From Elusimicrobium minutum (GTDB taxonomy: Bacteria > Elusimicrobiota > Elusimicrobia > Elusimicrobiales > UBA9959), in assembly GCA_020723765.1 (NCBI GenBank), contig DYIF01000009.1, forward strand, positions 6,583 through 70,582: a stretch of 64,000 bases of DNA, given 5' to 3'. Below the pieces are notes generated by a model. That model did no database searches and was not told the DNA's origin. It saw nothing but the letters and a program-made list of their open reading frames with translations. The translations under genes were made by a program, and so were the position numbers. Below are positions 35,393 to 52,640 of this stretch, piece by piece. Each line of letters starts with the position of its first letter. Positions within the stretch are counted from its first letter, which is position 1.

Positions 35393-35466
35393 CGGCCTGT
35401 ACGGGATTCGAACCCGTGATCTCCGCCTTGAGAGGGCGGCGTCCTGGGCCGCTAGACGAACAGGCC
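35393..35466 (-). tRNA. tRNA-Glu (anticodon CUC), no encoded CCA
   Basis: The reverse complement is GGCCTGTTCGTCTAGCGGCCCAGGACGCCGCCCTCTCAAGGCGGAGATCACGGGTTCGAATCCCGTACAGGCCG. It folds as a cloverleaf with a 7-bp acceptor stem, anticodon stem CCGCC/GGCGG, loop CTCTCAA and T-loop GGTTCGAATCC. It closely resembles E. coli tRNA-Glu. Confidence 0.92.
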
Positions 35467-39658: not shown

Positions 39659-39670
39659 CCGGAGGAGTTT

Positions 39671-40537
39671 ATGAAAAGAATAATGATATCTATTATTTTC
39701 TTGTCTATGTCGGTTTCATGCGTTAAGAAAACTCAAGAGGCAAACGGCAACGTTTTTTACGTTCAAACTCAAAAGGTTATGAGAAAAGACCTAAAAGAAG
39801 AGATTGTGCTCGCGGGCAACATAAAAGGAAAAGATGAGGCCGTCATATATCCGAGGGTCGGGGGAAAACTGATAAAAAATTTGGTTAAAGAAGGGGATTT
39901 CGTAAAAAAAGACGAAACGATATCTTTGATAAAAAAAGACGAGGTGGGAGTGGTTTACGAGCCGGCTCCGGTTCCTTCGACGCTTGACGGATATGTTGGC
40001 AGGGTTTATCAGGATGTGGGGGCGGATGTAAATCAGATGACCCCGATAGCTCTTGTGGTGGATCAAAGCGCCGTAAGAGTTCAGGCGGATGTGCCCGAAA
40101 AATATCTTTCGGATTTAAAAATCGGACAGGATATTTATTTTAAAGTTGACGCTTATAAGGATAAGATATTCAGGTCGAAGATAAATAAAATAAGTCCCGT
40201 GGTAGATAAAATGACAAGAACATTTGCGATAGAATCTATGGTCGATAATAAAGATAATTTGCTTAAATCCGGAATGACAGCCGAGGTTCATATAATACTT
40301 AAAGAGGCTCCAAGGGCGCTCTCGGTTCCAATTTCCGCATTGGTCGAAAAAAACGGAAAATATTACGTTTATATCGCCGACAGAGTCAACAATACGGCTA
40401 TAGAGAAAGAAATTAAAATCGGCCTTAAAAATACCGATTGCGTAGAAGTGAAAAATCTGGCGGAGGGAAGCGAGATAATAACGGTAGGACTTTACGGAAT
40501 AAAAAACGATTCTAAAATAAAAATTCTAAACGATTGA
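39671..40537 (+). CDS. RND efflux periplasmic adaptor (MFP) lipoprotein, short form without alpha-hairpin
   Basis: It has the lipobox SVSC. The two lipoyl-domain halves (PRVGGKLIKNLVKEGDFVKKDETI and TLDGYVGRVYQDVGADVNQ) are separated by only about 15 aa, and beta-barrel and membrane-proximal domains follow. Confidence 0.8.
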   Translation: MKRIMISIIFLSMSVSCVKKTQEANGNVFYVQTQKVMRKDLKEEIVLAGNIKGKDEAVIYPRVGGKLIKNLVKEGDFVKKDETISLIKKDEVGVVYEPAPVPSTLDGYVGRVYQDVGADVNQMTPIALVVDQSAVRVQADVPEKYLSDLKIGQDIYFKVDAYKDKIFRSKINKISPVVDKMTRTFAIESMVDNKDNLLKSGMTAEVHIILKEAPRALSVPISALVEKNGKYYVYIADRVNNTAIEKEIKIGLKNTDCVEVKNLAEGSEIITVGLYGIKNDSKIKILND

Positions 40538-40562
40538 GCCGTTTGATCATTAAGGAGAAATT

Positions 40563-43500: not shown

Positions 43501-43640
43501 TGAGAAGGTCTTTGGCCGGAGTCATAATAGGCGGACAGGTTTTGTCTCTGCTTATCACTCTTCTCATGACCCCGGTAACATATCTTTTGATGGATAACCT
43601 TCAGGAGTGGTTTAAAAAGAAGTTTAATCTTGAGAAATAA
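40563..43640 (+). CDS. RND-family efflux permease (AcrB/HAE1-like)
   Basis: 1025 aa with a 12-TM layout and two large periplasmic loops. The N-terminus FSIKRPVFTTMM and the motifs GLVIDDAIVMIENI and FGIVKKNSIL are typical of ACR_tran. Confidence 0.92.
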   Translation: MKLSEFSIKRPVFTTMMGVAIITLGIFSYIRIGVDLFPNVEFPFVTIKTTLRGASPEEMESSVTKLIEEAVNTVSGIEDLNSTSYEGMSLVMIEFDLDKDPDVAAQEVRDKVNTILSQLPQGTDTPVVSKVDFGAMPVINVAISSDRDIVNLTETVKKKVKESIETVNGVGSVDIVGGREREVHIILNPLKMQSYGISVKQVTDAIKQQNVEIPGGNVEQKDMDFVLRTMGRIKKVSEFNDILITSYNGTLIKLSDIARVEDTGEDIQSISYLNGKPAVTLVIKKQSGTNTVKVIENVKEKLKEIQKTLPPDMTLDIIGDQSVFIKGSLNAVKEHLVLGAILASLVILLFIGDLRSTIIAAIAIPVSVIGSFSLMETSGFTLNNITLLALVVGVGLVIDDAIVMIENIHRHLEHENVSSKDAAITGSREIGFAVLAISISLLAIFVPLAYMYGMAGRFMKSFGLTLAYAVGISTFVALTITPSYSGLILKKLKKTKFTEFADKINDFIGNWYIKILEFALSHVKLMVISSVILMISTVFLLKFIGKDFLPVDDTSMFQVNVTAKEGTNIEMMKKILSQIEKEVKAEIPYITKTLVNIGSSQSGVANKNEGYLFFEIVGVHERKETLTDVMARVRRMLSKYEGLRTSVIVGGQGSISGMKNYDMEYVITGPDLNELQVYSKSIIDELKKVEGAVDIDTSFSNAKPEYRVIIDRDRAHKLGVKIEDIANTMRSFVSGQESVTKYKEGDELYEVKVRADREWRSSDNIIKSLIVPSSVNKVVRLDSVADVESGYGPTQIDRFNRQRKISIYANIQGKASLNQLLDIADKTFKKINTNPQYSSQPVGKAKEFGKMLKSFLMAFIFAFLFVYIVLAAQFESFTYPISIIIILPLTIPFALISLYITGAKLTIFALMGMFMLFGIVKKNSILQVDYTNTLRAQGYERYKAMIEANRTRLRPILMTTVTLVFAMIPTALGTGPGANMRRSLAGVIIGGQVLSLLITLLMTPVTYLLMDNLQEWFKKKFNLEK

Positions 43641-43644: not shown

Positions 43645-43660
43645 TATTGACATGTCAATA
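43645..43660. promoter_or_regulatory. 16-bp perfect palindrome (operator candidate)
   Basis: TATTGACATGTCAATA is a perfect palindrome, and the half-site TATTGACA recurs at 43668-43675, overlapping the -35 box. Confidence 0.4.
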
Positions 43661-43669
43661 GTTTGGGTA

Positions 43670-43697
43670 TTGACAAAATAGCGAAATCTGCTATAAT
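43670..43697 (+). promoter_or_regulatory. Sigma70-type promoter upstream of the riboswitch leader
   Basis: TTGACA (43670-43675), a 16-nt spacer and TATAAT (43692-43697). Confidence 0.65.
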
Positions 43698-43756
43698 ATA
43701 AATGTAACAGCTTTGTAAGGCAAGCGTAATATATTTGTAACGCAAATATAGTACGA

Positions 43757-43830
43757 TAATAGCAAACCCGTCGTAAGACGGGGGCGCAAAGCTAAAGACC
43801 CCGGAGTATACCGGGGGGTCAGGCTGCCGA
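43757..43830 (+). promoter_or_regulatory. c-di-GMP-I (GEMM-I)-like riboswitch aptamer
   Basis: GCAAACC-CGUC-GUAA-GACG-GGGGCGCAAAGCU parallels V. cholerae Vc2 GCAAACC-AUUC-GAAA-GAGU-GGGACGCAAAGCC, including the GNRA-capped hairpin. A second hairpin follows (GACCCCGG-AGUAUA-CCGGGGGGUC). The element sits directly 5' of the ATG at 43835. Confidence 0.65.
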
Positions 43831-43834
43831 AACT

Positions 43835-45427
43835 ATGAAAAGAGAATTTATAAATATAATTAGACCGTTATATATACAGAGCATAATTTCTGTATTTATA
43901 GCGGTTTTTTCGTTTTATACCGATTTGTTTTCTCAAGCCGGAGGTCAGCCCGGAGCGTTTTTGTCGTATGGAGTAGGAGCCAGAGCCTTAGGAATGGGGG
44001 GAGCTTTTTTTGCGATAAGCGACGACGCCACGGCAAGCTACTGGAATCCCGCCGCTTTAACGCTTGTTGAAAGGAAAGAATTTGCTTTTATGCAGGCTCA
44101 GATGTTTGAACAGACCACTTTAAATTTTATAGGCTACGTTCAGCCGACCGCTTCCAAAGGAACATTCGGTATTTTTATGAATCAAATGAATTCCGGCGGA
44201 TTTGAAAAAGTTTCAATAACCGTAGATCCTAATACAGATGAGATAGTCAAATTGGATAGTTTGGGAAGTTTTAGCGTAAGCGAAAGAGCCATAGGACTGA
44301 GCTGGGGAAGGGCAGTATCTTCGAAACTCGCTTTCGGAATAGGCATAAAAAATATTTCGAGAAGCATAGACGTATCCAAAGATTCTTTTAATACGATAGA
44401 TCTCGCCATGAACTATAACGTTTCAAAAACATACAGATTCGCTTTCGGAGTCCAAAACATTTTTTCAATGAAAAGCGGAGATACCGACGACGAGTTCCCT
44501 TTGGTTTTTAAAATAGGTCAGTCCTTTTCCCTTTTTAAAGGCAGTTTAATATTCGATTTGGACGTAAGTAAGACCCAGGGCGGCGGGCAGAATCTCAGAT
44601 TCGGCGGCGAGTACTGGCCGCTTTACTGGGCGGCTTTCAGATTCGGGATAATGGCCACGCCTCAAATTCAAGAGGCGAGTTTCGGGATAGGTCTTAAATA
44701 CAGGGGAATAAATTTAGATATCGCTCAGGGCATTCATTCTTTAGGAAGTACGACCAAATTTTCGGTCGGTATGAGGTTCGGTGATTCCACAAAGGCCAAA
44801 CACGACAGTGAAATAAGAAACATTGTAAGACAGGCTTTGCAATATTTTAAATCGGGATATTTTTCAAAAGCCGTGGAAAAATTAAAAGCGGCCATGGACG
44901 CGGACCCCGGAAATCAGGAAGTTAGGAATATGCTGGATAAACTTCAGGCCGCCATAACCTATGTCCCCAACGCCACCGGAAACGACGAGATACAAACTCT
45001 GGTAAGAAGAGGTATAGTGGCATATGTGGACGGGAAAGATTTAAGAACCGCGGTAAACGTTTTAAGGCACGCTTACAATAAAAATCCGAAAGACGATAAG
45101 TTATTGTCTCTTTTAAATATGATAGAAAGAGAGGCCGGAGTAAGCGAGCTTACCAGAAGACCGGAAGGACCTGAGATGTTTACTTTGATAGATCAAAAGA
45201 TTTACGACGCAAGACAGGCCATATACGAAGGCAAATACGACGTGGCGCTTAGAAGAGCTCAGGATATATTGGATCTTGAACCAAATAACGAGACCGCTCT
45301 CGAAATAATGGGTAGCGCATTCTTCTTAATGGATCAAAAATCGAAAGCGAAAGCCATTTGGGAAAAAGTCGTCGAAATAAATCCCAATAATACCACGGTT
45401 AAACAATTCTTAGACCAGATAAGATAA
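43835..45427 (+). CDS. PorV/PorQ/UPF0164-like outer-membrane beta-barrel fused to a C-terminal TPR region
   Basis: It has a signal-like N-terminus. YGVGARALGMGGAFFAISDDATASYWNPAAL is the hallmark N-terminal motif of the PorV/UPF0164 (FadL-like) family. Alternating beta-strand sequence runs to about aa 320, followed by TPR-like repeats. Confidence 0.65.
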   Translation: MKREFINIIRPLYIQSIISVFIAVFSFYTDLFSQAGGQPGAFLSYGVGARALGMGGAFFAISDDATASYWNPAALTLVERKEFAFMQAQMFEQTTLNFIGYVQPTASKGTFGIFMNQMNSGGFEKVSITVDPNTDEIVKLDSLGSFSVSERAIGLSWGRAVSSKLAFGIGIKNISRSIDVSKDSFNTIDLAMNYNVSKTYRFAFGVQNIFSMKSGDTDDEFPLVFKIGQSFSLFKGSLIFDLDVSKTQGGGQNLRFGGEYWPLYWAAFRFGIMATPQIQEASFGIGLKYRGINLDIAQGIHSLGSTTKFSVGMRFGDSTKAKHDSEIRNIVRQALQYFKSGYFSKAVEKLKAAMDADPGNQEVRNMLDKLQAAITYVPNATGNDEIQTLVRRGIVAYVDGKDLRTAVNVLRHAYNKNPKDDKLLSLLNMIEREAGVSELTRRPEGPEMFTLIDQKIYDARQAIYEGKYDVALRRAQDILDLEPNNETALEIMGSAFFLMDQKSKAKAIWEKVVEINPNNTTVKQFLDQIR

Positions 45428-45495
45428 TATTAAATTGATACGATTTTAAATATTTATGAAATCTTTTTGTAATTATTATAAGGTAAAATTATATT

Positions 45496-47421
45496 ATGAG
45501 GCTTAAAAAAGCTTTAAATTTTTTGTTTGCATTAGTATTAATATCTTCGTTTTTATATTCTCAAGAAAAATCTTCTTCCAAAGACATAAACGTAATACTT
45601 ATAGAAAAACAAAACGAGTTTAGAAAGGAAATAGAAGATAAAATAAAAAACAATATTTTAGATCCTGTTTTGGGAAAAGATAAGGCATTCGCCTTTGCGG
45701 ACATATTGTTCGACATAATTACCAGAAAACAAGATCAGACAAAAGAAGGCGTCGGAGTTTTGCAACAGTATAAAGAAAAAGGAGCGGCCCAGTCTCAGGC
45801 CGATACCGACTTTATTCTCCCTGGAATTCCAAAACCGAAATCAATACTTGGAGATAATAATAAAAGACCCGAGGCCGCGCATGGAACTCAAACCCAGCAA
45901 ACAAAAGCCATAGAAGAAACCAAATTTTCGGTAGAGCCAGAAATAACCAGATTCCAGGTGACCGTTTTACACGATGAAAGTTTGCCTCAGGATCTTTTGA
46001 TGATAGCAAGACAAAGAATAGACGACCTTTTGCTCCCTTATAAAATAAAAGGTAAAGACGCTCCGATAGTAATATTCAAACCGACAAAATTTAAAGCTAC
46101 AAACATATGGGACGACTTGAAAAAACCAATGGTTTATCTTCCTTTGTTATACGCTTTGCTTTTTCTGTTGCTTCTTTTTTATCTTTTCGGCCCTTTGTGG
46201 TCTTTTTTAAGAAAATATATAAAAGCTCTTATGGAAAAACCGGGTGCGGAGGTTAACATAGAGGATAAGCGAGAAGAGGGGGGAGGAAAAGGCGAAGGAG
46301 AAGGAGAGGAAGAGCAGGAAGGACATCAACAGATAGATATGAATTTTACTCAAAAAGAGGAAGAACCGCCCCCGCCGCCCGAGGAGGATGAGTCTATGAA
46401 AAAACTTGAGCCCTTTACTTATATAAACGAAGAAAATTTAAAAAGACTCGTTTATCTTTTCTTATTAAGGAAAGAAGACCCGTGGATAATAGCGATAGTT
46501 TTGAGTTATTTAAAACCCGAGCTTTCGAAGCAGGCTTTTGCGATGTTGCCGGTAGAGTTGCAATCGAAAGTGGCGTTGGAATCGCTAAAAGTCAAACAGG
46601 CTACCAGAGAGCAGATAGAAGCCATAGATAAGGATATAAAAGAAAATGTGGAATTCGTTATGGGGGGGGTTGAGCAGTTAATGAAGATATTGGAAGAGGC
46701 GGATGCTCAGACAAGAAAAAACGTTTTGGAATATTTGAAAACTCAAAAGCCGGATATATACGAAAAAATAAAAACGATAATGCTTACTTTCGAGGACCTG
46801 GTTTCTTTTTCGGATAAGGATATACAGACAATAATAAGAAACATATCCAACGAGGACCTCGCGAAAGCCTTAAAAGGAGCCGCTCCGGAAATAGTGGATA
46901 AATTTTTTAACAATATGTCCGCGGGCGCAAAGGCCACAATAAGAGAAATAATGGAATATATGGGAGAGCAGAACCAGCAGCAGATAGACGACGCCCAGAT
47001 GAAGGTTTTGGATACCGCTAAAACTCTGGAAGCGGAGGGAAAGATATCCAGTTATAGAAGAAGCGATGCGGGGGGAGTTTATATATTGGACTCATCGGAC
47101 GTTTCCCAAAGCTCTTTAAGAGAAAGCAAAATGGGAAAAGCGGCTCAGTCTCAAAATTTAAACGCGTCTGCCGAAGACTATTTCAATTCGGCGGTGGAGC
47201 TTTATAACTCGGGCAATTACGAAGAAGCTGCGTCTTATTTTAAATATATAACGGATTCCGATCCGAATAACGCATCGGCATGGCAGTACCTGGGTTCTTC
47301 TTATTACTCATTGGGCAATTATCAGGAGGCTGTATCCGCTTATGAAAATTACGTAAATATTACTGGAGACGAAGAGTTTAGGTCCTGGCTTGAGGATTTA
47401 AAAAGGCAATTAGGAATGTAA
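45496..47421 (+). CDS. Membrane-anchored FliG-like protein (TM, ~190 aa periplasmic domain, TM, acidic/Pro linker, FliG middle and C-terminal domains, TPR)
   Basis: The two hydrophobic segments are aa 8-22 and MVYLPLLYALLFLLLLFYLFGPLW. The FliG_M-like part is WIIAIVLSYLKPELSKQAFAMLPVELQSKVA. The FliG_C-like part is FEDLVSFSDKDIQTIIRNISNEDLAKALKGAAPEIVDKFFNNMSAGAKATIREIMEYMG. C-terminal TPRs include GNYEEAASYFKYITDSDPNNASAW. Confidence 0.7.
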   Translation: MRLKKALNFLFALVLISSFLYSQEKSSSKDINVILIEKQNEFRKEIEDKIKNNILDPVLGKDKAFAFADILFDIITRKQDQTKEGVGVLQQYKEKGAAQSQADTDFILPGIPKPKSILGDNNKRPEAAHGTQTQQTKAIEETKFSVEPEITRFQVTVLHDESLPQDLLMIARQRIDDLLLPYKIKGKDAPIVIFKPTKFKATNIWDDLKKPMVYLPLLYALLFLLLLFYLFGPLWSFLRKYIKALMEKPGAEVNIEDKREEGGGKGEGEGEEEQEGHQQIDMNFTQKEEEPPPPPEEDESMKKLEPFTYINEENLKRLVYLFLLRKEDPWIIAIVLSYLKPELSKQAFAMLPVELQSKVALESLKVKQATREQIEAIDKDIKENVEFVMGGVEQLMKILEEADAQTRKNVLEYLKTQKPDIYEKIKTIMLTFEDLVSFSDKDIQTIIRNISNEDLAKALKGAAPEIVDKFFNNMSAGAKATIREIMEYMGEQNQQQIDDAQMKVLDTAKTLEAEGKISSYRRSDAGGVYILDSSDVSQSSLRESKMGKAAQSQNLNASAEDYFNSAVELYNSGNYEEAASYFKYITDSDPNNASAWQYLGSSYYSLGNYQEAVSAYENYVNITGDEEFRSWLEDLKRQLGM

Positions 47422-47468
47422 CATTTTTTTAATTTTATTGAAATACGAGTATTTTAAAATATAAATAT

Positions 47469-50252
47469 ATGGCAGAGAATAAAAAAATACCTCCGATACC
47501 GCCGCTGGGCTTCCCTTCAAAGCCCGCTAATAAGCCGGCCGGATCCGTTCCTCAAATACCGAGTCCCATAACCCCCAGGGTTTCTCCTCCTTCTTTTCAA
47601 AAACCGCAGGCTCAGGAAGATAGAGGAAAAGAAGAAAGAGAAAAACTTGAAAAAAAGATAGCGGAACTTGAAAAAAGTTTAAGCGAAGAAAGAGAAAAAG
47701 TCCTGGCCTTAACCATAAAAAATCAACAGGAAGAGGTTTTGGCGGCCAAACTTGAAAATTCCATAAGAGACGTGGAAGAGAAAATAAAAAGAACTCAGCA
47801 GGAAAAAGCTTTAGAAGAAGAGAAAAATCAGTTGAAAGCGAAAATAAAGGAGCTTGAAACAAGATTGATTCAGGAGAGAGAAACATGGATGCAAACCCTT
47901 AAGTCTCAAATAAAAGACAAAGAGAAAGAGTCCAAAGACATAGAAGAACATTTCATATTGAGATTTCAAGAGTTTGAAAGAAAGTTCTTGGACGAAAAGG
48001 CTCAGTGGCAGAAGGCGATTTTTTCAAAAGACGAGGAGATTAAAAATATTAAGCTGCTGCTCGAACAAAAAACGAGAATCGAAGAAGATTATAAAAGGCT
48101 TTTGATGGAAAGAGAGGGGGATAAAAAAGAAATAGAAAGGCTTAAAGAAAGCTTGAATTCTTTAGAGAAGGAAAGGATTTCCTTGGATTCCTACATAAAA
48201 CTCATACCCGAAAAAGAAAAAGAAATAATAATGTTGAAAAACGAGATATCCAATTTAAAAATTCTATTTGAAAACGAAGTCGGCAAATTTAAAAATAAGG
48301 AAGAGGCTTTGAATAAAGAGATTTTGGAGCTGAAAAATAAACTTTCCCAGGTAAGCGAAAAAAATCTGATAGAAAGACAAAAAGAAATAGAGAAGATAAA
48401 ATTCGATTACGAAAAACTGCTTAAAGAAAAAGAGCTTTTAATATCCGATATAAATTTGGCAAAGACCGCGTTGGCTCAGGAAAACTTTAAATTAAAAAAT
48501 AGCGTTTCGGAAGCGGAAAAAGAGTTGTTTTTCCATAAAGAAAAAAATAAAAACTTGGAGCTCGAGAAGAAAGAGTTGGCTTCGGAGCTTGCGAAATTAA
48601 TAGAGGCGAATAAGGTCCTTATGAGCCAAAACGCGGAGCTTAAAGCCGAAAACGAAAATATGCATTCCAATTTGAAAAACGAGATAAATAAAATAGAAAT
48701 GAAATATTCGGATAAAATAAGAAACTTAGAATTTGAAAACTCCAATTTAACTCAGGATATTAAGAGAAAAGAAAACGAATATAACGCTCTTTTAAACAGA
48801 TATAAAAGCGAGACGGAATCTTTGTCGGAACAACTAAAAAAAATCGAGTCTTTTAGAAGGCAGGCGGAAAAAGATTACTCCGAAGCCTTAAACGAAAATA
48901 GAGAGCTTATCAAAGAATTGAATAAAATTAAATACGAAAACGAAAAAATCAATTCGGAGCTTACTATAGCCAAAGAAAAATTGGCGGATGTGGAAAGGGA
49001 GTTAAAACAAAAGGAAGATATAATAAAAAACGTTAAAAAAACTTATAACGACAGGTTTGAAAAAGTAAGCGAATCCATAAAGAAAATAGCGGCCACCAAG
49101 GTTTTTATAGAATCCGAAAACAAAAGGCTTCAAAGCGAGAAAATGGAGCTTTCCAAAAAATTGGCCGGTTTGATGCAGGATATTAAAAAGTTAGAGATGG
49201 AAAATGCGGCCGTAAGATCCGCTTACGAAGAGGAAATAGAGAACTATAAAAAAATAATAGAAAACATAAAAAATTCCAATAACGAAAATATAATTTCGGA
49301 GTATGAAAATAAGATAAACTCTCTGGTAGCCAGATATGAGACGGAGATAGGAAATTACAAAAAAGAAATCGAAAATATCAGGGCGAAATACGATGAAGAT
49401 ATTAAAAAGATATCGGCGGAGTACGAAGAAAAGATAAAACATATATCTTCAAACGAGATGAAAAATGTAGAGGCCGATTACGAGAAAAAAATAGCGGATA
49501 TAAAAGCGGAGTATGAGGCAAGGATTTCTCAAATCGTGGAATCGGGCAAAAAAGAGTATGAAGATATAAAATCGAAGTTTGACGAAAGTCAGAAAAAAAT
49601 AGACGAATTAAATGATATAATAAAAAATCGAGGGGAAGAGACGGGTAATATCGAAAAAATTAAATCGGAATATGAAGAAGAATTGAAAAAGAAGGATATG
49701 GAAATAAGCGATTTGAAATCCGAGATATCCAAAAAACAAGAAGAATTGGAGTCGTCTAAAAACAATTCCCCGGATTTTTCAACCGAGATGGAAAATAAGG
49801 CGAAAGAAATCGAATTTAGTTATGAGAATAAAATTAAAGAAATGGAGGCAAAATATATCTCTCAAATAGAAGCGCTTTCCAACGAATTGAAGGAAGAAAG
49901 AAGCAAGATATCTTTGCTGGAAGAAGAGATAAAAAAACTAAAAACGCAATCCGAAAATATCCCTCAAGATCCTTCCAAATTAAACGGGGAGCTTTTAAAA
50001 TATAAACAGTTTCTCGAAAAATACAAATCCGAATACGAAAAACTTAAAAACGCTTATTTTATGATCAAAGCCAAAGAGGAAGCCTCGGAAAAAAGAATAA
50101 ACGAATTGAATTCCAATCTCAACGCCTTAAACTCCGATTACAACGAACTTCTCGGAGAATTGCATAAACATGTTATGAATATCGAAGAAAAAGATAAAAA
50201 GATAGAAGAACTTAAACAACTTGTCGAAGAAATAAAGAAACAACAGAAATAA
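47469..50252 (+). CDS. 927-aa coiled-coil protein with Pro-rich N-terminus
   Basis: The first ~45 aa are Pro-rich (IPPIPPLGFPSKPANKPAGSVPQIPSPITPRVSPP). The remainder is K/E/L heptad-like sequence with no TM helix and no recognisable enzymatic motif. Confidence 0.7.
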   Translation: MAENKKIPPIPPLGFPSKPANKPAGSVPQIPSPITPRVSPPSFQKPQAQEDRGKEEREKLEKKIAELEKSLSEEREKVLALTIKNQQEEVLAAKLENSIRDVEEKIKRTQQEKALEEEKNQLKAKIKELETRLIQERETWMQTLKSQIKDKEKESKDIEEHFILRFQEFERKFLDEKAQWQKAIFSKDEEIKNIKLLLEQKTRIEEDYKRLLMEREGDKKEIERLKESLNSLEKERISLDSYIKLIPEKEKEIIMLKNEISNLKILFENEVGKFKNKEEALNKEILELKNKLSQVSEKNLIERQKEIEKIKFDYEKLLKEKELLISDINLAKTALAQENFKLKNSVSEAEKELFFHKEKNKNLELEKKELASELAKLIEANKVLMSQNAELKAENENMHSNLKNEINKIEMKYSDKIRNLEFENSNLTQDIKRKENEYNALLNRYKSETESLSEQLKKIESFRRQAEKDYSEALNENRELIKELNKIKYENEKINSELTIAKEKLADVERELKQKEDIIKNVKKTYNDRFEKVSESIKKIAATKVFIESENKRLQSEKMELSKKLAGLMQDIKKLEMENAAVRSAYEEEIENYKKIIENIKNSNNENIISEYENKINSLVARYETEIGNYKKEIENIRAKYDEDIKKISAEYEEKIKHISSNEMKNVEADYEKKIADIKAEYEARISQIVESGKKEYEDIKSKFDESQKKIDELNDIIKNRGEETGNIEKIKSEYEEELKKKDMEISDLKSEISKKQEELESSKNNSPDFSTEMENKAKEIEFSYENKIKEMEAKYISQIEALSNELKEERSKISLLEEEIKKLKTQSENIPQDPSKLNGELLKYKQFLEKYKSEYEKLKNAYFMIKAKEEASEKRINELNSNLNALNSDYNELLGELHKHVMNIEEKDKKIEELKQLVEEIKKQQK

Positions 50253-50277
50253 TCTTTTTTGATATAATTATACTTAG

Positions 50278-50502
50278 ATGATATTATTGCATAAACTTAA
50301 CAATTGCGAGATATTGATAAACGCCGAGCTTATAGAAAGCGTCGAGTCTTCTCCGGATACCGTAATAAATCTTGTTACCGGTAACAGGTTTATAGTAAGA
50401 GAATCTAAAGAAGATGTGGAAATGAAAGTGATAGAATATAAAAAAAAGGTTTATTCGGAAAGAAGAATTTTGAATCCCATAGAGGGATTTGAAAAAAAAT
50501 GA
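50278..50502 (+). CDS. flbD: FlbD (SwrD)-family small flagellar-associated protein
   Basis: 74 aa. ILLHKLNNCEILINAELIESVESSPDTVINLVTGNRFIVRES matches the FlbD family pattern, and the gene lies immediately 5' of motA-motB as in spirochete flagellar operons. Confidence 0.75.
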   Translation: MILLHKLNNCEILINAELIESVESSPDTVINLVTGNRFIVRESKEDVEMKVIEYKKKVYSERRILNPIEGFEKK

Positions 50503-50510
50503 GGTGAGAA

Positions 50511-51308
50511 ATGGATATAGCCACCTTTAGCGGTATAATAGTTTTCGCCGGCTTTGTGGTCGGAGCGGTTTATTTGCAAGAAGGAATCAACGGTTTTAAG
50601 CCGTTTATGAACGTCGAAGCGCTTTTGGTAGTTATGGGCGGTACATTTTGCGCTTTGCTTGTCAATTTCCCGCTATCCAAAGTAATCGGAATGGGTAAGG
50701 TTTTAAAAAAGGTAATGGCGTCTAAAGGAGAAGACACGTCTAAACTCGTTTCCACTTTCGTTTCTCTTTCTCAGAAAGCCAAAAAAGAAGGTTTTTTGGC
50801 TCTTGAAGCCGACGTTAAGAACATAGAAGACGATTTTATGAAAAGAGCCATACAGCTGGTGATAGACGGCGCGGACCACGATTTTATAAAAAACATGTTG
50901 GAGACCGAAATAGATTTCATACGCGAAAGGCATAAGGTAGGAAGAGAGATATTTAACGCTTTGGGAACGTACGCTCCGGCTTTCGGAATAATAGGTACCG
51001 TTTTAGGTATGATTCTTATGTTGTCTACGATAGACGATGTGGCTCAGGTGCCCAGAAGAATGGCTCTCGCTTTAGCCGCCGCTTTTTACGGCCTTGGTTC
51101 CGGTTACTGGCTTTTTCTGCCTATGGCCGGTAAATTAAAGCTAAGATCGGAGGAAGAGATTTTTATAAAAGAGATAATTATAAGAGGTGTTTTGTTGCTT
51201 CAAAGCGGCGCCACGCCTTCGGTTGTGGAAGCCAATTTAAAGGCATATCTTGAACCTTCCAAAAGACAATCCGTTAAGAAAGAAGAGGGGGAAGGAGAAA
51301 ATAGATAA
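50511..51308 (+). CDS. motA: Stator protein MotA (MotA/TolQ/ExbB channel family, flagellar type)
   Basis: It has four TM helices and a cytoplasmic loop with KKEGFLALEADV. The C-terminal channel helices are YAPAFGIIGTVLGMILML and ALAAAFYGLGSGYWLFLP. Confidence 0.85.
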   Translation: MDIATFSGIIVFAGFVVGAVYLQEGINGFKPFMNVEALLVVMGGTFCALLVNFPLSKVIGMGKVLKKVMASKGEDTSKLVSTFVSLSQKAKKEGFLALEADVKNIEDDFMKRAIQLVIDGADHDFIKNMLETEIDFIRERHKVGREIFNALGTYAPAFGIIGTVLGMILMLSTIDDVAQVPRRMALALAAAFYGLGSGYWLFLPMAGKLKLRSEEEIFIKEIIIRGVLLLQSGATPSVVEANLKAYLEPSKRQSVKKEEGEGENR

Positions 51309-51946
51309 TGGCGGTAAAACTTAAAAATATGATACCGGAGGACGACCCTCGTGTCGCTCCAATAGGCCATCCGGCGCCTCCCTGGATGGTTAATTACGCC
51401 GACCTTATGACCGAGATGGTTTGTTTTTTTATAATACTCTACGCTTTAAGCGCGGCTTTAAACAAAAATGTTCAAAATGCCGCTCAACAGATTAAAGAGA
51501 TGATGGAAAAGGGGGAGATGGCGGGTCAGGTCGAGATAAATAAAGAGGGGTTAAAGATAACTCTGGAAGAACAGGGGAACTTGCCTTTTTTTGAAAGCGG
51601 CAAGGCGACTTTAACCGAAGAGATGACCGGCAATATAGATAAAATAGTTCCGACTTTAAAAAAGCTTTCTCAAGATTATGAAATAATAGTCGAAGGCCAT
51701 ACGGATAACGTTCCGATATTTACCCAGCAGTTCGCATCCAATTGGGAACTTTCAACGGCAAGAGCCACTTCGGTTGTAAAATATTTGATAGATAAAGGGA
51801 TATCTCCAAAAAAAATATCCGCGATAGGTTACGGGGAGTTCAGGCCGGTCGTTCCAAACGACACTCCGCAAAACAGACAAAAAAATAGGAGAGTAGTTTT
51901 TTTTGTAAAAACTTTTGCAGGGAAGGTGAAGGATGAAAAAAAATAA
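51308..51946 (+). CDS. motB: Stator protein MotB (OmpA-like peptidoglycan-binding C-terminus)
   Basis: PPWMVNYADLMTEMVCFFIILYAL contains the conserved channel Asp. The OmpA-like domain carries VEGHTDNVP, NWELSTARATSV and NRRVVFFV. It has a TAATG overlap with motA. Confidence 0.88.
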   Translation: MAVKLKNMIPEDDPRVAPIGHPAPPWMVNYADLMTEMVCFFIILYALSAALNKNVQNAAQQIKEMMEKGEMAGQVEINKEGLKITLEEQGNLPFFESGKATLTEEMTGNIDKIVPTLKKLSQDYEIIVEGHTDNVPIFTQQFASNWELSTARATSVVKYLIDKGISPKKISAIGYGEFRPVVPNDTPQNRQKNRRVVFFVKTFAGKVKDEKK

Positions 51947-52640
51947 AATAATTTTTTTGCTTTTTTTCCTTAGCGGATGTTTTTCTTCTTCAAATATAAA
52001 AGTTGTGGATTTTACAGACGGCAGAGTTTCGGATCTGGCGTTAACTAAAAAGGTTATAGGCAAGAAAAATTTCCTATTTTTTACGACTACCAAATTGGGA
52101 ATATTCTTGGAAGGTTCCATAGCGGGGGTTGTTACCGATTATTACGGAAATCCAATAGAGGGGGTTACCGTAAAAGCGGTAAGCGATGTGGTAAAAAAGG
52201 AAGATGAAAATATAATAGAAGAAAACGCCAATTCCATGATAAGCTTAAACTTTACTCCGGGAGTAAGCGACACTATGGGAATTTATAAAATAAGGTTTTC
52301 CCTTCCCGTAATAGATAACGAGGTGGACGTAAGAGGAAGACTTGTCTATAACCCCGGGTGGGAGCAGCAGAAAAACAATTTAGGCAAGACTTACGAGCCA
52401 CAGATAAAGGAATCCCCGTTTAGACTTTATTACAATTTAGAAAACGGTTTTTTGGCTTTTGCGGAAGGAGTAAGGTCGGTGGTGGTGGCTCCCGTCGGAG
52501 AGGGAATAGGAAAGATGAAAACTCTTCCCGGTCAAAAGCCTCCTCAGACGAAAGAGGAAAAGCCTAAGACCGAAGAGAAAAAAGAGGAAAAACCGGCGAC
52601 CAATAACGAGGACGACATATTTAAAGCCTTCGGCTTTTAG
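51933..52640 (+). CDS. Lipoprotein with carboxypeptidase-regulatory-like beta-sandwich and K/E/P-rich tail
   Basis: It has the lipobox LSGC. GSIAGVVTDYYGNPIEGVTVKAV is CarboxypepD_reg-like, and the tail is low-complexity (QKPPQTKEEKPKTEEKKEEKP). It overlaps motB by 14 nt. Confidence 0.55.
   Translation: MKKNKIIFLLFFLSGCFSSSNIKVVDFTDGRVSDLALTKKVIGKKNFLFFTTTKLGIFLEGSIAGVVTDYYGNPIEGVTVKAVSDVVKKEDENIIEENANSMISLNFTPGVSDTMGIYKIRFSLPVIDNEVDVRGRLVYNPGWEQQKNNLGKTYEPQIKESPFRLYYNLENGFLAFAEGVRSVVVAPVGEGIGKMKTLPGQKPPQTKEEKPKTEEKKEEKPATNNEDDIFKAFGF

What the first reader, a model, noticed from the sequence alone, without database searches (positions are those of the whole stretch)
43645..52640. Riboswitch-led operon joining a flagellar-type stator (FlbD-MotA-MotB) to a membrane-anchored FliG-like protein, a PorV-like OM barrel and a giant coiled coil, with no other flagellar genes
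Seven same-strand ORFs (43835-52640) with short spacers or overlaps follow one strong promoter and a GEMM-I-like leader.

Their products are:
- an outer-membrane barrel with the PorV/UPF0164 signature fused to TPRs;
- a bitopic inner-membrane protein whose cytoplasmic part is FliG middle plus C-terminal domains followed by TPRs;
- a 927-aa Pro-rich/coiled-coil protein;
- FlbD;
- MotA;
- MotB with the channel Asp and an OmpA-like domain;
- a lipoprotein with a carboxypeptidase-regulatory-like fold.

From established knowledge, flbD-motA-motB normally sit inside flagellar operons next to flgE or fliL/fliM/fliN, as in the Borrelia flgB operon. Here no fliF, fliM/N, flg rod/hook, flhA/B, fliI or flagellin gene appears in the cluster or anywhere in the 64 kb, although a type IV pilus module does.

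The parts list comprises an ion-driven stator, a rotor-like inner-membrane protein, a cytoplasmic coiled coil, TPR scaffolds, an outer-membrane barrel and a lipoprotein. It is conceptually like trans-envelope motors such as Myxococcus Agl-Glt or Bacteroidetes GldLM/T9SS, but it is built from bona fide MotAB/FliG modules.

My hypothesis is a c-di-GMP-controlled, non-flagellar (or drastically reduced) rotary or force-transducing envelope machine.
Basis: partly seen in the sequence, partly recalled or inferred. Interest (0 to 1): 0.85.

Follow-up and report, generated by a model that had tools for sequence, protein, structure and literature searches.

The report
Flagellar motor parts without a flagellum
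A seven-gene operon found throughout one group of bacteria (Elusimicrobiales) joins the flagellar torque proteins MotA/MotB/FlbD and a membrane-anchored FliG-like protein to an outer-membrane PorV-like barrel, and it matters because it probably forms an undescribed ion-driven machine for a giant surface protein rather than part of a flagellum.

Summary
Seven tightly spaced + strand ORFs (43835-52640) follow a perfect sigma-70 promoter and a GEMM-I aptamer (Rfam 59.2 bits). Profile searches confirm five products: a PorV/PorQ-family barrel with TPRs, a FliG_M+FliG_C+TPR protein with a signal peptide and one membrane helix, FlbD, a flagellar-type MotA, and MotB with plug, Asp32 and OmpA domain. 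The sixth is a 927-aa coiled coil. The seventh is a lipoprotein whose fold is unconfirmed. No other flagellar family occurs in the 64 kb.

New findings:
- The block keeps the same order in 57 loci, all Elusimicrobia MAGs.
- The riboswitch precedes the first gene in all 48 loci that reach it, and its 3' end lies 3-8 nt from the start codon.
- In about 40 loci the gene directly upstream is a giant ORF (gene calls of 11,824-16,733 aa) ending in a T9SS-type C-terminal domain. The window's own clade has an RND pump there instead.
- The FliG-like protein lacks FliG_N and the FliM-binding motif, and keeps one stator charge pair.
- The aptamer has A at the G20 position, so the ligand may be c-di-GMP or cGAMP.

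Verdict: a non-flagellar MotAB/FliG machine, probably serving the giant surface protein. It is undescribed apart from one passing note in a preprint.

The parts
43670..43697 (+). sigma-70-type promoter (TTGACA, 16 nt, TG-n-TATAAT)
   Evidence: It matches 12 of 12 positions and has an extended -10 TG. A -10-like TATTAAT/TATAAT sits at the equivalent place, about 45 nt 5' of the aptamer, in the relatives (alignment A4).
43751..43831 (+). GEMM-I (c-di-GMP-I family) aptamer, A20 variant
   Evidence: Rfam RF01051 scores 59.2 bits, E 5e-9. A covariance model finds one copy in each of 48 loci, always directly 5' of the PorV-like gene. Compensatory changes support P2 and P3. The base 5' of GCAAA (window 43761, equivalent to Vc2 G20) is A.
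43747..43837 (+). candidate P1 closing helix (43747-43752 UAUAGU with 43832-43837 ACUAUG), which includes the AUG start codon
   Evidence: Duplex prediction gives 6 bp in the window clade and 7 bp (UAUUGUU/AACGAUG) in the main clade, with three compensatory positions between clades. The energies are weak and many family members show only 4 bp.
43835..45427 (+). outer-membrane PorV/PorQ-family beta-barrel with a C-terminal TPR domain (530 aa)
   Evidence: NF033709 scores 113.8 bits against a cut-off of 90 over residues 42-315, and TPR_19/TPR_2 cover residues 330-528. It has a signal peptide. Identity across the loci is 43-86%.
45496..47421 (+). bitopic inner-membrane FliG-like protein: signal peptide, periplasmic alpha-beta-beta-alpha-beta domain with an insert (residues ~26-200), membrane helix (~211-236), acidic/Gly linker, FliG_M+FliG_C (residues ~304-520), TPR (~560-625)
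   Evidence: Pfam gives FliG_C 1.5e-30 and FliG_M 2.4e-10. The match to T. maritima FliG 1lkv is 1.4e-34. The AlphaFold2 model of residues 1-249 has mean pLDDT 69.
47469..50252 (+). 927-aa cytoplasmic coiled-coil protein with a Pro-rich N-terminus
   Evidence: Only SMC-, filament- and Mlp-like coiled-coil matches were found, and no hydrophobic segment was noticed on reading the translation. It keeps its position in all loci but is only 24-50% identical.
50278..50502 (+). FlbD/SwrD-family small protein (74 aa)
   Evidence: PF06289 matches at 2.3e-22 over residues 1-58.
50511..51308 (+). flagellar-type stator A subunit (MotA/PomA/MotP-like, 265 aa)
   Evidence: NCBIfam MotP, MotA and PomA models score 218-240 bits. 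The best PDB matches are flagellar stators: 6ysf at 3e-51 and PomA at 1.6e-45. It is the most conserved gene of the block, at 65-93% identity. K91 is K or R in 42 of 42 family members; E99 is E in 30 and Q in 12.
51308..51946 (+). stator B subunit (MotB-like, 212 aa) with plug, channel Asp32 and OmpA-like peptidoglycan-binding domain
   Evidence: MotB_plug matches at 9e-13 and OmpA at 1.6e-22, and the MotD and MotB models score 133-162 bits. Asp32 is confirmed.
51933..52640 (+). conserved 235-aa lipoprotein, all-beta, with a conserved C-terminal tail EDD[IL]FK[AG]F[GD]F
   Evidence: The lipobox Cys16 is invariant. The family has 338 homologues; every one that carries a source name is from Elusimicrobia, and the listed ones have no Pfam domain. 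The AlphaFold2 model has pLDDT 57 and the fold search found nothing.

Best explanation
The block encodes a non-flagellar, ion-driven trans-envelope machine specific to Elusimicrobiales.

Shown:
- A flagellar-type stator module (FlbD, MotA, MotB with plug, channel Asp and peptidoglycan anchor) is co-encoded and co-conserved with four partners.
- The first partner carries the FliG middle and C-terminal (torque) domains. It is tethered to the inner membrane by one helix and has a conserved periplasmic domain.
- The other partners are a cytoplasmic coiled coil, a lipoprotein, and an outer-membrane PorV/PorQ-family barrel with TPRs.
- A GEMM-I cyclic-dinucleotide aptamer abuts the first start codon in every family member.
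- In most relatives a giant ORF ending in a T9SS-type sorting domain lies immediately upstream.

Inferred mechanism:
- The FliG-like protein oligomerises through its periplasmic domain, whose topology resembles a ring-building motif, into an inner-membrane ring that displays FliG_C.
- MotA5B2 units, anchored to peptidoglycan, turn against it through the retained charge pair: MotA K91 (the E. coli R90 equivalent) with FliG-like E484 (the D288 equivalent).
- The movement is passed through the periplasm by the ring domain, the lipoprotein and the TPR domain of the barrel to the PorV-like barrel.
- The barrel holds the C-terminal domain of the giant surface protein, much as PorP/SprF-type barrels hold SprB.
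- The coiled coil and the cytoplasmic TPRs act as scaffold or track.

The most likely output is movement of the giant adhesin on the cell surface, that is, gliding-type motility. The second most likely is its export or deployment.

When the aptamer binds its ligand it is expected to close a P1 helix over the AUG and shut off translation of the first gene. This would make it an OFF switch at high cyclic-dinucleotide levels, like Vc2/tfoY.

My estimates: non-flagellar MotAB/FliG machine about 0.8; functionally tied to the giant CTD protein about 0.6; motility rather than secretion about 0.55 of that; OFF switch about 0.55.
For: -
- MotA is closest to solved flagellar stators. ExbB and TolQ do not appear at E<=1e-5.
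- MotB has Asp32, the plug and the OmpA domain.
- The FliG-like protein aligns with T. maritima FliG residues 2-221 at 1.4e-34, and with E. coli FliG from about residue 104 onward (tblastn hits span residues 121-321). It keeps the Gly-Gly linker and the N-M-S...G frame of the torque helix as invariant columns.
- It lacks FliG_N (Pfam E 0.0064, below cut-off), and EHPQ is changed to EDPW.
- Charge-pair logic: FliG R281 becomes an invariant Gly, and its partner, the MotA E98 equivalent, relaxes to Q in 12 of 42 members. The MotA R90 equivalent stays K or R in 42 of 42, and the FliG D288 equivalent stays an invariant Glu.
- The whole FliG-like protein is strongly conserved, including its membrane helix (VYLPLLYA..L..LFGPLW is invariant).
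- The AlphaFold2 model of the N-terminal part shows helix, strand, an insert, strand, helix, strand, then the membrane helix.
- The Foldseek top 50 contains EscJ, four FliF MS-ring chains, MxiJ and PrgK, although none is significant.
- Seven-gene synteny holds in 57 Elusimicrobia loci.
- The riboswitch is present in 48 of 48 loci that include the region, with covariation.
- The distance from the aptamer to the AUG is 3-8 nt, with no Shine-Dalgarno sequence between them.
- The giant upstream ORF is shown. Its C-terminal domain matches FlgD_ig at 29 bits (cut-off 27), TIGR04183 at 23.1 bits (cut-off 23), and the C-terminal ends of PorZ and PorU.
- A family HMM finds that domain at 177-210 bits in every giant ORF.
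- NCBI names one fragment 'T9SS type A sorting domain-containing protein'.
- The preprint 10.1101/2022.07.08.499144 states that these genes occur in flagellum-less Elusimicrobiota and that their role is 'enigmatic'.
Against: - No complete genome was surveyed, so absence of flagella in this organism rests on the literature and on 1.1 Mb of flanking DNA.
- The window's own clade (window, L004, L007, L008) has an RND pump in place of the giant gene. No CTD protein was found in the DNA available for that clade. The cargo link is therefore indirect for this genome.
- Three of the five classical FliG torque-helix charges are lost.
- Similarity of the ring-building motif to FliF is not significant: Foldseek E >= 0.2, hhalign probability 1.75%, and the PDB profile search found nothing.
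- No SprA/Sov, PorK/L/M/N or PorU was seen near the block, and T9SS is not reported for this phylum.
- The P1/AUG pairing energies are weak and often no better than shuffles.
- One locus (L045) lacks FlbD-MotAB-lipoprotein at this site, and the most distant locus (L062) lacks the lipoprotein and has an extra ORF.
Confidence: 0.55

Rival explanations
1. The machine is a secretion or attachment engine rather than a motility engine. In this reading MotAB and the FliG-like ring energise export of the giant CTD protein across the outer membrane and its anchoring on the PorV-like barrel. It would be a minimal, T9SS-like system in which a flagellar stator takes the place of PorLM/GldLM.
For: - A PorV/PorQ-family barrel lies next to a gene for a protein with a T9SS-type C-terminal domain.
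- In Bacteroidota the same motor powers both secretion and gliding (PMC8986121, listed).
- The CTD is extremely conserved, at 177-210 bits.
Against: - No translocon (SprA/Sov) or PorK/N ring gene lies in or near the block.
- The block persists, well conserved, in the window clade where no CTD gene is adjacent.
- A cytoplasmic FliG/coiled-coil/TPR platform has no counterpart in T9SS.
- An adhesin-export system would be expected to switch on at high c-di-GMP, whereas the leader looks like an OFF switch. That inference is weak.
Confidence: 0.25
2. These are ordinary flagellar accessory genes: an extra stator set plus a FliG paralogue or collar proteins, in organisms that do build flagella elsewhere in the genome.
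For: - flbD-motA-motB is a standard flagellar gene trio in Firmicutes and spirochaetes (own knowledge).
- NCBIfam shows faint similarities of the TPR parts to spirochaete collar proteins, with E about 0.01.
- The preprint says a few Elusimicrobiota do have full flagellar sets.
Against: - No flagellar gene flanks the block in any of 57 loci or in the window.
- The preprint reports these genes in most free-living Elusimicrobiota that lack structural flagellar genes.
- The FliG-like protein lacks FliG_N and the EHPQR motif and is membrane-anchored.
- Its consistent partners are a PorV-like barrel and a giant CTD protein, not flagellar parts.
Confidence: 0.07
3. The block is an envelope-maintenance or force-transduction system of the Tol-Pal or Ton type: an inner-membrane 5:2 motor, TPR proteins, a peptidoglycan binder, an outer-membrane barrel and a lipoprotein. 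On this view it has no role in motility or cargo handling.
For: The parts are formally analogous to TolQR-TolA-TolB-Pal-CpoB, namely motor, TPR, OmpA-like domain and lipoprotein.
Against: - MotA is of the flagellar type, not TolQ/ExbB-like.
- Elusimicrobia have a separate Tol-Pal/CpoB system (PMC12204202).
- Control by a cyclic-dinucleotide riboswitch and linkage to a giant CTD gene are not expected for a housekeeping envelope system.
Confidence: 0.05
4. The block is a Zorya-like anti-phage system: a MotAB-type ZorAB with a long coiled-coil tail. Alternatively it is a decaying relic of an ancestral flagellum with no function.
For: - MotB matches the ZorB models at 70 bits.
- A long coiled coil is encoded next to the stator.
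Against: - MotA matches no ZorA model, no ZorC or ZorD is present, and MotB scores far higher on flagellar MotB/MotD models, at 162 bits.
- Relic status is contradicted by intact frames and by 65-93% MotA identity across 57 loci with fixed gene order and a fixed riboswitch.
Confidence: 0.02

Closest known systems
Bacterial flagellar motor core (MotA5B2/PomAB stator acting on FliG of the C-ring; FlbD/SwrD accessory)
   Same: - MotA and MotB are homologous at the level of flagellar stators, with plug, Asp32, peptidoglycan-binding domain and the charged cytoplasmic loop.
- The FliG middle and C-terminal domains are present, with the Gly-Gly linker and a conserved torque helix.
- An FlbD-family gene lies 5' of motA.
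   Different: - No FliF, FliM/N, export apparatus, rod, hook or filament genes occur in the window or the flanks.
- The FliG-like protein lacks FliG_N and the EHPQR motif. It is itself membrane-anchored, with a periplasmic domain and C-terminal TPRs.
- R281, D289 and R297 are lost.
- Scores fall below the NCBIfam equivalog cut-offs (fliG 126 against 226.7; MotA 224-240 against 340-394).
Bacteroidota gliding/T9SS machinery (GldLM/PorLM motor, PorV, PorP/SprF-type barrels, giant adhesin SprB)
   Same: - A giant surface-protein gene with a T9SS-type C-terminal domain lies next to the gene for a PorV/PorQ-family outer-membrane barrel.
- An inner-membrane 5:2 ion-driven motor is encoded alongside.
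- The likely output is adhesin movement and/or export (PMC9143113 and PMC8986121, listed).
   Different: - The motor is MotAB, not GldLM.
- A cytoplasmic FliG-like element and a coiled coil are present.
- No SprA/Sov, PorK/N, PorU or GldJ was seen.
- The phylum lies outside the known T9SS range.
- The barrel carries a fused TPR domain.
Myxococcus Agl-Glt gliding complex
   Same: The parts list matches conceptually: a TolQR/MotAB-class motor, bitopic inner-membrane proteins, a cytoplasmic coiled coil (AglZ) and TPR protein (GltI), periplasmic TPR, outer-membrane barrels, a lipoprotein and a surface adhesin. This comparison rests on my own knowledge and on PMC13104615.
   Different: No homology was shown beyond the motor class. 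The motor here is of the flagellar type and comes with a FliG element. No MglA or MreB link is known.
GEMM-I riboswitches controlling motility (Vc2 upstream of tfoY; C. difficile Cd1 upstream of flgB; Geobacter GEMM-Ib cGAMP switches)
   Same: - It is the same aptamer family, scoring above the Rfam gathering score and supported by covariation.
- It sits in front of a motility-type operon.
- As in Vc2, the aptamer lies directly against the translation start (the behaviour of Vc2 and Cd1 is from my own knowledge).
   Different: - Position G20 is A in 46 of 47 members, as in cGAMP-sensing or bispecific variants (PMC6140456).
- There is no terminator, and the aptamer ends 3-8 nt from the AUG.
- The ligand and the sign of regulation are untested.
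FliF MS-ring RBM3 with beta-collar, and SctJ/EscJ/PrgK ring-building motifs
   Same: - The periplasmic domain has alpha-beta-beta-alpha-beta topology with a large insert after the first strand, followed by a membrane helix.
- FliF, EscJ, MxiJ and PrgK appear among the top Foldseek matches.
- The only hhalign match to E. coli FliF falls at residues 225-272, which from my own knowledge I place at about the start of RBM3.
   Different: None of these similarities is statistically significant (E >= 0.2; probability 1.75%). The insert is modelled at low confidence. No ring has been shown.

Membership tests
c-di-GMP-I riboswitch (Rfam RF01051, GEMM-I) | Covariance-model score above the curated gathering score | tested here: met
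   The window scores 59.2 bits against 35, and L001 and L002 score 58.2 and 57.8.
c-di-GMP-I riboswitch (Rfam RF01051, GEMM-I) | P2 and P3 helices supported by compensatory changes | tested here: met
   Of 18 RNAalifold pairs, 11 show changes on both sides. No shuffle out of 500 reached the observed covariation.
c-di-GMP-I riboswitch (Rfam RF01051, GEMM-I) | G at the Vc2-G20 position, which reads G-alpha of c-di-GMP | tested here: not met
   It is A in the window (43761) and in 46 of 47 aptamers; only L059 has G. An A at this position marks cGAMP-sensing or bispecific variants (PMC6140456).
c-di-GMP-I riboswitch (Rfam RF01051, GEMM-I) | C92 equivalent and the intercalating A47 (ACGCAAAGC junction) | tested here: met
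   CGCAAAG and the 3' CCG are invariant in all 47 sequences, and the A that follows CCG is invariant or nearly so. The mapping to Vc2 numbering is from my own knowledge.
c-di-GMP-I riboswitch (Rfam RF01051, GEMM-I) | Binds the ligand and changes gene expression | not testable with these tools
   This needs in-line probing or ITC, plus a reporter assay.
Flagellar stator MotA/MotB (the 'FIT' clade of PMC12505986) | The A subunit is closest to flagellar stators and has the cytoplasmic torque-generating region | tested here: met
   The best PDB hits are MotA 6ysf (3e-51), 6ysl, and PomA (1.6e-45). MotP, MotA and PomA models match full length at 218-240 bits.
Flagellar stator MotA/MotB (the 'FIT' clade of PMC12505986) | Scores reach the NCBIfam equivalog cut-offs | tested here: not met
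   MotA scores 240 against 394 (MotP), 224 against 340 (MotA) and 218 against 341 (PomA). MotB scores 162 against 283.
Flagellar stator MotA/MotB (the 'FIT' clade of PMC12505986) | Rotor-facing charged residues (E. coli R90 and E98) | tested here: inconclusive
   K91 is K or R in 42 of 42 members. E99 is E in 30 and Q in 12.
Flagellar stator MotA/MotB (the 'FIT' clade of PMC12505986) | The B subunit has a plug, the channel Asp and a peptidoglycan-binding domain | tested here: met
   MotB_plug matches at 9e-13, Asp32 is present, and OmpA matches at 1.6e-22.
Flagellar stator MotA/MotB (the 'FIT' clade of PMC12505986) | Works in a flagellum (a flagellar gene set is present in the genome) | not testable with these tools
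   No whole genome was available. No flagellar gene occurs in the window or in 1.1 Mb of flanks. The literature says such genes are mostly absent.
FliG (flagellar switch protein) | FliG middle and C-terminal domains | tested here: met
   FliG_M matches at 2.4e-10 and FliG_C at 1.5e-30, and 1lkv matches at 1.4e-34.
FliG (flagellar switch protein) | N-terminal domain that binds FliF | tested here: not met
   FliG_N reaches only E 0.0064 (17.5 bits against 25) and overlaps the M region. The N-terminal 300 residues are instead a signal peptide, a periplasmic domain, a membrane helix and an acidic linker.
FliG (flagellar switch protein) | EHPQR motif that binds FliM | tested here: not met
   EHPQ is replaced by EDPW, with D328 nearly invariant and W330 invariant.
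FliG (flagellar switch protein) | Charged torque-helix residues (E. coli K264, R281, D288, D289, R297) | tested here: inconclusive
   K264 is roughly kept. D288 becomes Glu (invariant E484). R281 becomes an invariant Gly, D289 becomes Ile, and R297 becomes Asn, Thr or Ser.
FliG (flagellar switch protein) | Equivalog score (TIGR00207) | tested here: not met
   It scores 126 bits against a cut-off of 226.7.
T9SS PorV/PorQ outer-membrane shuttle family | Subfamily model NF033709 above its cut-off | tested here: met
   It scores 113.8 bits against 90 over residues 42-315.
T9SS PorV/PorQ outer-membrane shuttle family | Equivalog to PorV, PorQ or PorV2 | tested here: not met
   The scores are 27 against 250, 60.6 against 220 and 75 against 325.
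T9SS PorV/PorQ outer-membrane shuttle family | A partner cargo with a T9SS C-terminal sorting domain | tested here: inconclusive
   This is met in about 40 related loci: the giant ORF directly upstream has FlgD_ig at 29 bits against 27 and TIGR04183 at 23.1 against 23. It is not met in the window or its clade.
T9SS PorV/PorQ outer-membrane shuttle family | Core T9SS (SprA/Sov, PorK/L/M/N, PorU) present in the genome | not testable with these tools
   None lies in the loci. Genomes could not be scanned. No paper was found that links the phylum to T9SS.
Zorya (ZorAB) defence | ZorA-type A subunit and ZorC/ZorD partners | tested here: not met
   MotA matches no PADLOC model, and MotB matches ZorB at only 70 bits.
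FliF/SctJ ring-building motif | Significant fold or profile similarity to RBM domains | tested here: inconclusive
   The topology fits. FliF, EscJ, MxiJ and PrgK are among the top Foldseek hits, but E >= 0.2. hhalign gives probability 1.75%, and the PDB profile search found nothing.

The most novel reading that the evidence does not exclude
This is a previously unrecognised type of bacterial surface machine. In it the flagellar torque couple (MotAB stator and FliG) has been uncoupled from the flagellum. A self-anchored FliF/FliG-like ring in the inner membrane is driven by MotAB. Through a lipoprotein and a TPR-bearing PorV-like barrel it propels or deploys a 12,000-17,000-residue adhesin carrying a T9SS-type C-terminal domain, giving flagellum-less Elusimicrobia a gliding-type motility. 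The whole is gated by a cyclic-dinucleotide (possibly cGAMP) riboswitch that occludes the start codon. If true, it would also be a living example of a stator-rotor pair working without a type III export apparatus, which bears on how the flagellar motor arose.
Probability: 0.35. Interest if true: 0.92.

Novelty: new variant of a known kind. Interest (0 to 1): 0.82.

Why it matters
FliG has so far been known only as part of the flagellar C-ring. Flagellar-type MotAB is regarded as specific to flagella; the mBio 2025 classification PMC12505986 treats it that way.

A conserved operon in a largely flagellum-less lineage would show that the flagellar torque interface can be reused as a stand-alone module. 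This operon pairs MotAB with a membrane-anchored FliG, an outer-membrane PorV-like barrel and a giant CTD protein.

It would give a concrete candidate for the unexplained 'motAB/flbD/fliG without flagella' pattern noted for Elusimicrobiota, including the magnetotactic ones that need some form of motility. It would also assign a first functional context to the giant proteins in which this phylum is enriched.

Finally, it offers a testable system for asking how stator-rotor pairs evolved relative to the export apparatus.

Tried and rejected
- Zorya-like defence was rejected. MotA matches no ZorA model, and MotB matches ZorB far more weakly than flagellar MotB.
- A Tol-Pal analogue is unlikely, because MotA is of the flagellar type and Elusimicrobia have their own Tol-Pal.
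- Sequence tests of homology between the periplasmic domain and FliF led nowhere. The PDB profile search found nothing, and hhalign against E. coli FliF gave probability 1.75%. Foldseek was only suggestive.
- The lipoprotein gave a low-confidence model (pLDDT 57) and no fold match.
- tblastn of 2,600-aa C-terminal pieces of six giant proteins found no copy in the window. Six-frame hmmsearch with a CTD HMM also found none.
- A database search with the giant C-terminus returned only 29 fragments, none assignable to the window's clade. Whether this genome has the giant gene elsewhere therefore stays open.
- RNAalifold did not recover a P1 helix, partly because MAFFT shifts the window clade by one base. 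Per-sequence duplex folding gave only weak support.
- The E. minutum genome paper (PMC2681670) and PMC7785019 could not be read because they are not held.
- Short proteins of 160-240 aa that match the periplasmic domain have no Pfam family and were not followed further.

Full report
**1. Is it there?**

Yes. Seven + strand ORFs occupy 43835-52640, with spacers of 68, 47, 25 and 8 nt followed by overlaps of 1 and 14 nt. A perfect sigma-70 consensus lies upstream at 43670-43697: TTGACA, 16 nt, TATAAT, with an extended -10 TG. It is the only 12/12 match in the 9.7 kb scanned. Rfam places a c-di-GMP-I (GEMM-I) aptamer at 43751-43831, scoring 59.2 bits against a gathering score of 35.

Pfam and NCBIfam confirm the parts list.
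- Gene 1 belongs to the PorV/PorQ family (NF033709, 113.8 bits, cut-off 90) and carries C-terminal TPRs.
- Gene 2 has FliG_M (2.4e-10), FliG_C (1.5e-30) and TPRs. These follow a signal peptide, a conserved domain of about 180 residues, and one membrane helix.
- Gene 3 gives only coiled-coil matches.
- Gene 4 is FlbD (2.3e-22).
- Gene 5 matches the flagellar MotP, MotA and PomA models over their full length (218-240 bits).
- Gene 6 has the MotB plug, Asp32 and an OmpA-like domain.
- Gene 7 has a lipobox with an invariant Cys. The proposed carboxypeptidase-regulatory fold is below threshold (E 0.019).

The other 42 large ORFs that I scanned show no flagellar family. The three I did not scan (56065-58958) correspond to ordinary enzyme gene calls in L064. 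Together these ORFs encode:
- chaperones;
- pyruvate:ferredoxin oxidoreductase;
- PilM/(N)/O/(P)/Q (15306-19729);
- O-antigen-ligase-like proteins;
- M16 peptidases;
- an RND pump directly upstream (37817-43640);
- phosphoglucomutase, enolase and others downstream.

**2. Whose is it, and is it conserved?**

The FliG-like protein has more than 120 listed homologues at 55-98% identity, nearly all full-length (the shortest listed is a 537-aa partial). Every source name says Elusimicrobia, Elusimicrobiales or Elusimicrobiota. The window's exact lipoprotein is encoded on MAG GCA_040753895.1.

A scan of one genome per GTDB species returned 57 loci. Nearly all are titled as Elusimicrobia-group MAGs (four are titled only 'bacterium'). 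tblastn with the seven window proteins shows the same seven genes in the same order wherever the contig is long enough.
- MotA is the most conserved, at 65-93% identity.
- The coiled coil is the least conserved, at 24-50%.
- L045 lacks FlbD-MotAB-lipoprotein at this site.
- L062, the most distant locus, has an extra 581-aa ORF and no detectable lipoprotein.

The periplasmic-plus-membrane part of the FliG-like protein is a small family: 99 clusters at 50% identity among 1.84 billion proteins.

**3.

In gene calls for related contigs, the gene directly upstream on the same strand is a giant ORF of 11,824 to 16,733 residues.

Across the loci with enough upstream DNA, about 40 of 46 have a + strand frame that stays open over the whole 7.5-8 kb available and stops 180-580 nt before the PorV-like gene. 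All of these ORFs end in the same roughly 100-residue domain: '..NYPNPFD.RKGG.EGKT.I.YTL...AEVTITIYDLLGYVVKEF...WDG.N..G..VSKGGYI.RIKA...G.....RKIGVIH'.

This domain matches:
- Pfam FlgD_ig at 29 bits (cut-off 27);
- NCBIfam TIGR04183 'T9SS type A sorting domain' at 23.1 bits (cut-off 23);
- the C-terminal ends of PorZ, PorU and a T9SS cargo model.

NCBI's own annotation calls one fragment a T9SS type A sorting domain protein. An HMM of the domain scores 177-210 bits in every giant ORF and finds nothing in the window or in L004, L007 and L008.

Those four share a different upstream neighbour, the TetR-OEP/MFP/AcrB pump. The window's clade has therefore lost the adjacency. Whether it keeps the giant gene elsewhere could not be settled.

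A giant adhesin gene next to the gene for its own PorV/PorP-type barrel is the arrangement known for SprB and SprF and for type B CTD proteins in Bacteroidota (PMC9143113, listed; the operon detail is from my own knowledge).

**4. The riboswitch**

A covariance model built from three aptamers finds exactly one copy in each of 48 loci, always directly 5' of the PorV-like gene. P2 and P3 show compensatory changes: 11 of 18 pairs, and no shuffle out of 500 reached the observed covariation. A -10-like TATTAAT lies about 45 nt 5' of the aptamer in the relatives. The block therefore has its own promoter even where it sits behind the giant gene.

In every member the conserved 3' 'CCGAA' of the aptamer is only 3-8 nt from the start codon (GTG in L056; no ATG was found in the 12-nt scan for L059). 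No Shine-Dalgarno sequence lies between them, although many other genes in the window have a clear GGAGG.

The bases just 5' of the aptamer can pair with those just 3' of it.
- In the main clade the pairing is UAUUGUU with AACGAUG.
- In the window clade it is UAUAGU with ACUAUG.
- Three positions differ in a compensatory way, and the helix covers the AUG.
- Many members have only 4 bp, and the energies are weak.

I infer a translational OFF switch in which ligand binding closes P1 over the start codon. This resembles Vc2 in front of tfoY (my own knowledge). I put the confidence at about 0.55.

The base that corresponds to Vc2 G20 is A in 46 of 47 aptamers. According to PMC6140456:
- G20 reads G-alpha of c-di-GMP;
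- cGAMP-sensing GEMM-Ib RNAs have A at this position;
- Vc2 G20A binds both ligands, at 53 and 120 nM.

The ligand may therefore be c-di-GMP, 3'3'-cGAMP or both.

**5. The motor proteins in detail**

MotA's best solved relatives are flagellar stators: Clostridium MotA 6ysf (3e-51), Bacillus MotA, and Vibrio PomA (1.6e-45). No ExbB or TolQ appears at E <= 1e-5. This places it with the 'flagellar ion transporters' of PMC12505986.

The FliG part aligns with T. maritima FliG over 215 residues (1.4e-34) and with E. coli FliG from residue ~104 onward.

Kept as invariant columns:
- E125 and P127;
- the M-G-G linker;
- F236;
- the N277-M278-S279...G294 frame of the torque helix.

Changed:
- EHPQ becomes EDPW, altering the FliM-binding motif;
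- R281 becomes an invariant Gly;
- D289 becomes Ile;
- R297 becomes Asn, Thr or Ser.

D288 is kept as an invariant Glu (E484), and K264 is roughly kept.

In 42 family MotA sequences the partner of FliG D288/D289, the E. coli R90 equivalent K91, is K or R in all. The partner of the lost R281, the E98 equivalent E99, is E in 30 and Q in 12. One of the two classical stator-rotor charge pairs is thus retained and the other has relaxed on both sides. I read this as a working but remodelled interface. That reading is an inference.

There is no FliG_N. In its place are a signal peptide, a periplasmic domain and a membrane helix whose sequence is almost invariant (VYLPLLYA.L.L..L..LFGPLW).

AlphaFold2 on residues 1-249 (pLDDT 69) gives a helix (26-59) and a strand (65-78). 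A low-confidence insert (78-145) follows, which holds invariant motifs. Next come a strand (146-160), a helix (165-178), a strand (191-197) and the membrane helix. This is the alpha-beta-beta-alpha-beta order of ring-building motifs, with an insert where FliF RBM3 carries its beta-collar (my own knowledge).

Foldseek finds nothing significant (best E 0.2). Its top 50 nevertheless includes EscJ (rank 1), FliF MS-ring chains (ranks 3, 13, 16 and 23; target TM-score up to 0.47), MxiJ and PrgK. hhalign against E. coli FliF aligns only residues 31-75 with FliF 225-272, at probability 1.75%. The ring idea is therefore a lead, not a result.

**6. Most likely mechanism**

Section 5 gives the basis for the motor part. 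The coupling steps below are inferred from domain content alone.

- An inner-membrane ring of the FliG-like protein is turned by peptidoglycan-anchored MotA5B2 units, with FlbD as a stator accessory.
- The cytoplasmic TPRs and the Pro-rich coiled coil form a platform or track.
- On the periplasmic side, the ring domain, the lipoprotein (with its conserved C-terminal FKAFGF tail) and the TPR domain of the barrel couple the motor to the PorV-like barrel.
- The barrel holds the C-terminal domain of the giant surface protein.

I favour movement of that protein along the surface, that is, gliding, with repression by a cyclic dinucleotide. The main rival is that the motor energises its export or attachment.

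The preprint 10.1101/2022.07.08.499144 independently notes that most free-living Elusimicrobiota, including magnetotactic ones, carry motAB, flbD and fliG without structural flagellar genes. It calls their role enigmatic and speculates about gliding or twitching. It does not describe the operon, the riboswitch, the PorV-like gene, the membrane-anchored architecture or the giant-gene link.

Two papers report that the phylum is enriched in huge proteins but assign no function. A 2026 review of gliding does not mention the phylum or FliG.

**7. Rivals**

- Flagellar accessory genes in a flagellated organism. This is unlikely, because no flagellar gene flanks the block in any locus. E. coli FliE, FliF, FliH and FliI find nothing in 1.11 Mb of flanks plus the window, and FliG hits only residues 121-321 of the FliG-like gene. 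It is not excluded for this genome, because no full genome could be scanned.
- Tol-Pal-like envelope system. This is unlikely.
- Zorya. Rejected.
- Relic. Rejected on conservation.

**8. Novelty and score**

The parts are homologues of known modules, and one preprint has noticed the bare co-occurrence. I therefore file it as a new variant of a known kind, namely ion-driven 5:2-motor envelope machines.

The combination has no described counterpart in the literature I could search. It comprises:
- a flagellar stator;
- a self-anchored FliG;
- a PorV-like barrel;
- a giant CTD protein;
- an A20 GEMM-I switch at the start codon.

If the mechanism holds, it would count as a new kind of machine. Interest 0.82.

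Noticed in passing
L001 1-7728, L002 2-7891, L005 2-7813, L054 2-8080 and about 36 other loci (not in the window): Giant ORFs (gene calls of 11,824-16,733 aa) with a highly conserved T9SS-type C-terminal domain lie directly upstream of the riboswitch and the seven-gene block in most Elusimicrobiales. Apart from that domain, the last 2,600 residues match almost no Pfam family.
   Followed up: partly
window 43761 (and the same column in alignments A3 and A4): The aptamer base equivalent to Vc2 G20 is A in 46 of 47 family members; only L059 has G. This is the signature of cGAMP-sensing or bispecific GEMM-I variants, so the ligand may not be c-di-GMP, or not only c-di-GMP.
   Followed up: partly
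Relatives, about +7 to +24 of the PorV-like ORF (e.g. L032 8014-8167; alignment A4 columns ~146-163): A hairpin in the first codons (GCAUU-loop-AAUGC or GCAAU-loop-AUUGC) is conserved with compensatory swaps. The string UUUGUAAUGC also occurs 5' of the aptamer, so a long-range alternative pairing may be part of the expression platform. The window clade lacks this hairpin and instead has a hairpin 5' of the aptamer, at about 43729-43751 (UAUAUUUGU-AAC-GCAAAUAUA), which overlaps the P1 5' strand.
   Followed up: no
window 37817-39658: A single 613-aa ORF combines an N-terminal TetR DNA-binding domain (residues 11-55) with two outer-membrane efflux protein (TolC-like OEP) repeats. The same fusion (616 aa) is called in L004. 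A cytoplasmic DNA-binding domain fused to an outer-membrane channel is topologically odd.
   Followed up: no
window 15306-22734: A type IV pilus assembly set comprises PilM, an unassigned 180-aa ORF, PilO, an unassigned 147-aa ORF and the secretin PilQ. It is followed by two large Wzy_C/O-antigen-ligase-like membrane proteins, which may be pilin glycosylation enzymes.
   Followed up: no
L062 166-8345 and L045 8218-14413: Two variant architectures were seen. The most distant locus (L062, 33% identity) has an extra 581-aa ORF between the FliG-like gene and the coiled coil, and no lipoprotein homologue. L045 has the PorV-like gene, the FliG-like gene and the coiled coil, but no FlbD-MotAB-lipoprotein at the locus, and a 1,460-aa upstream ORF without the CTD.
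   Followed up: partly
proteins P0286, P0289, P0308, P0318, P0319, P0324 and others: Stand-alone proteins of 160-240 aa match only the periplasmic domain of the FliG-like protein (E 1e-8 to 1e-4) and have no Pfam family. The domain may therefore also exist on its own in other contexts.
   Followed up: partly
window 51933-52640 (C-terminus) and alignment A6: The lipoprotein ends in a strongly conserved acidic-aromatic tail, EDD[IL]FK[AG]F[GD]F(GQ), which follows a variable Pro/Lys/Glu-rich linker. It looks like a docking peptide, possibly for one of the TPR domains.
   Followed up: no
window 33489-35466: An AAA_15/AAA_21 (AbiEii-like) ATPase gene at 33489-34646 lies next to a tRNA-Glu(CUC) gene at 35393-35466 on the - strand. 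The interval has the lowest GC content of the window (0.30). It may be a small mobile or defence island.
   Followed up: no
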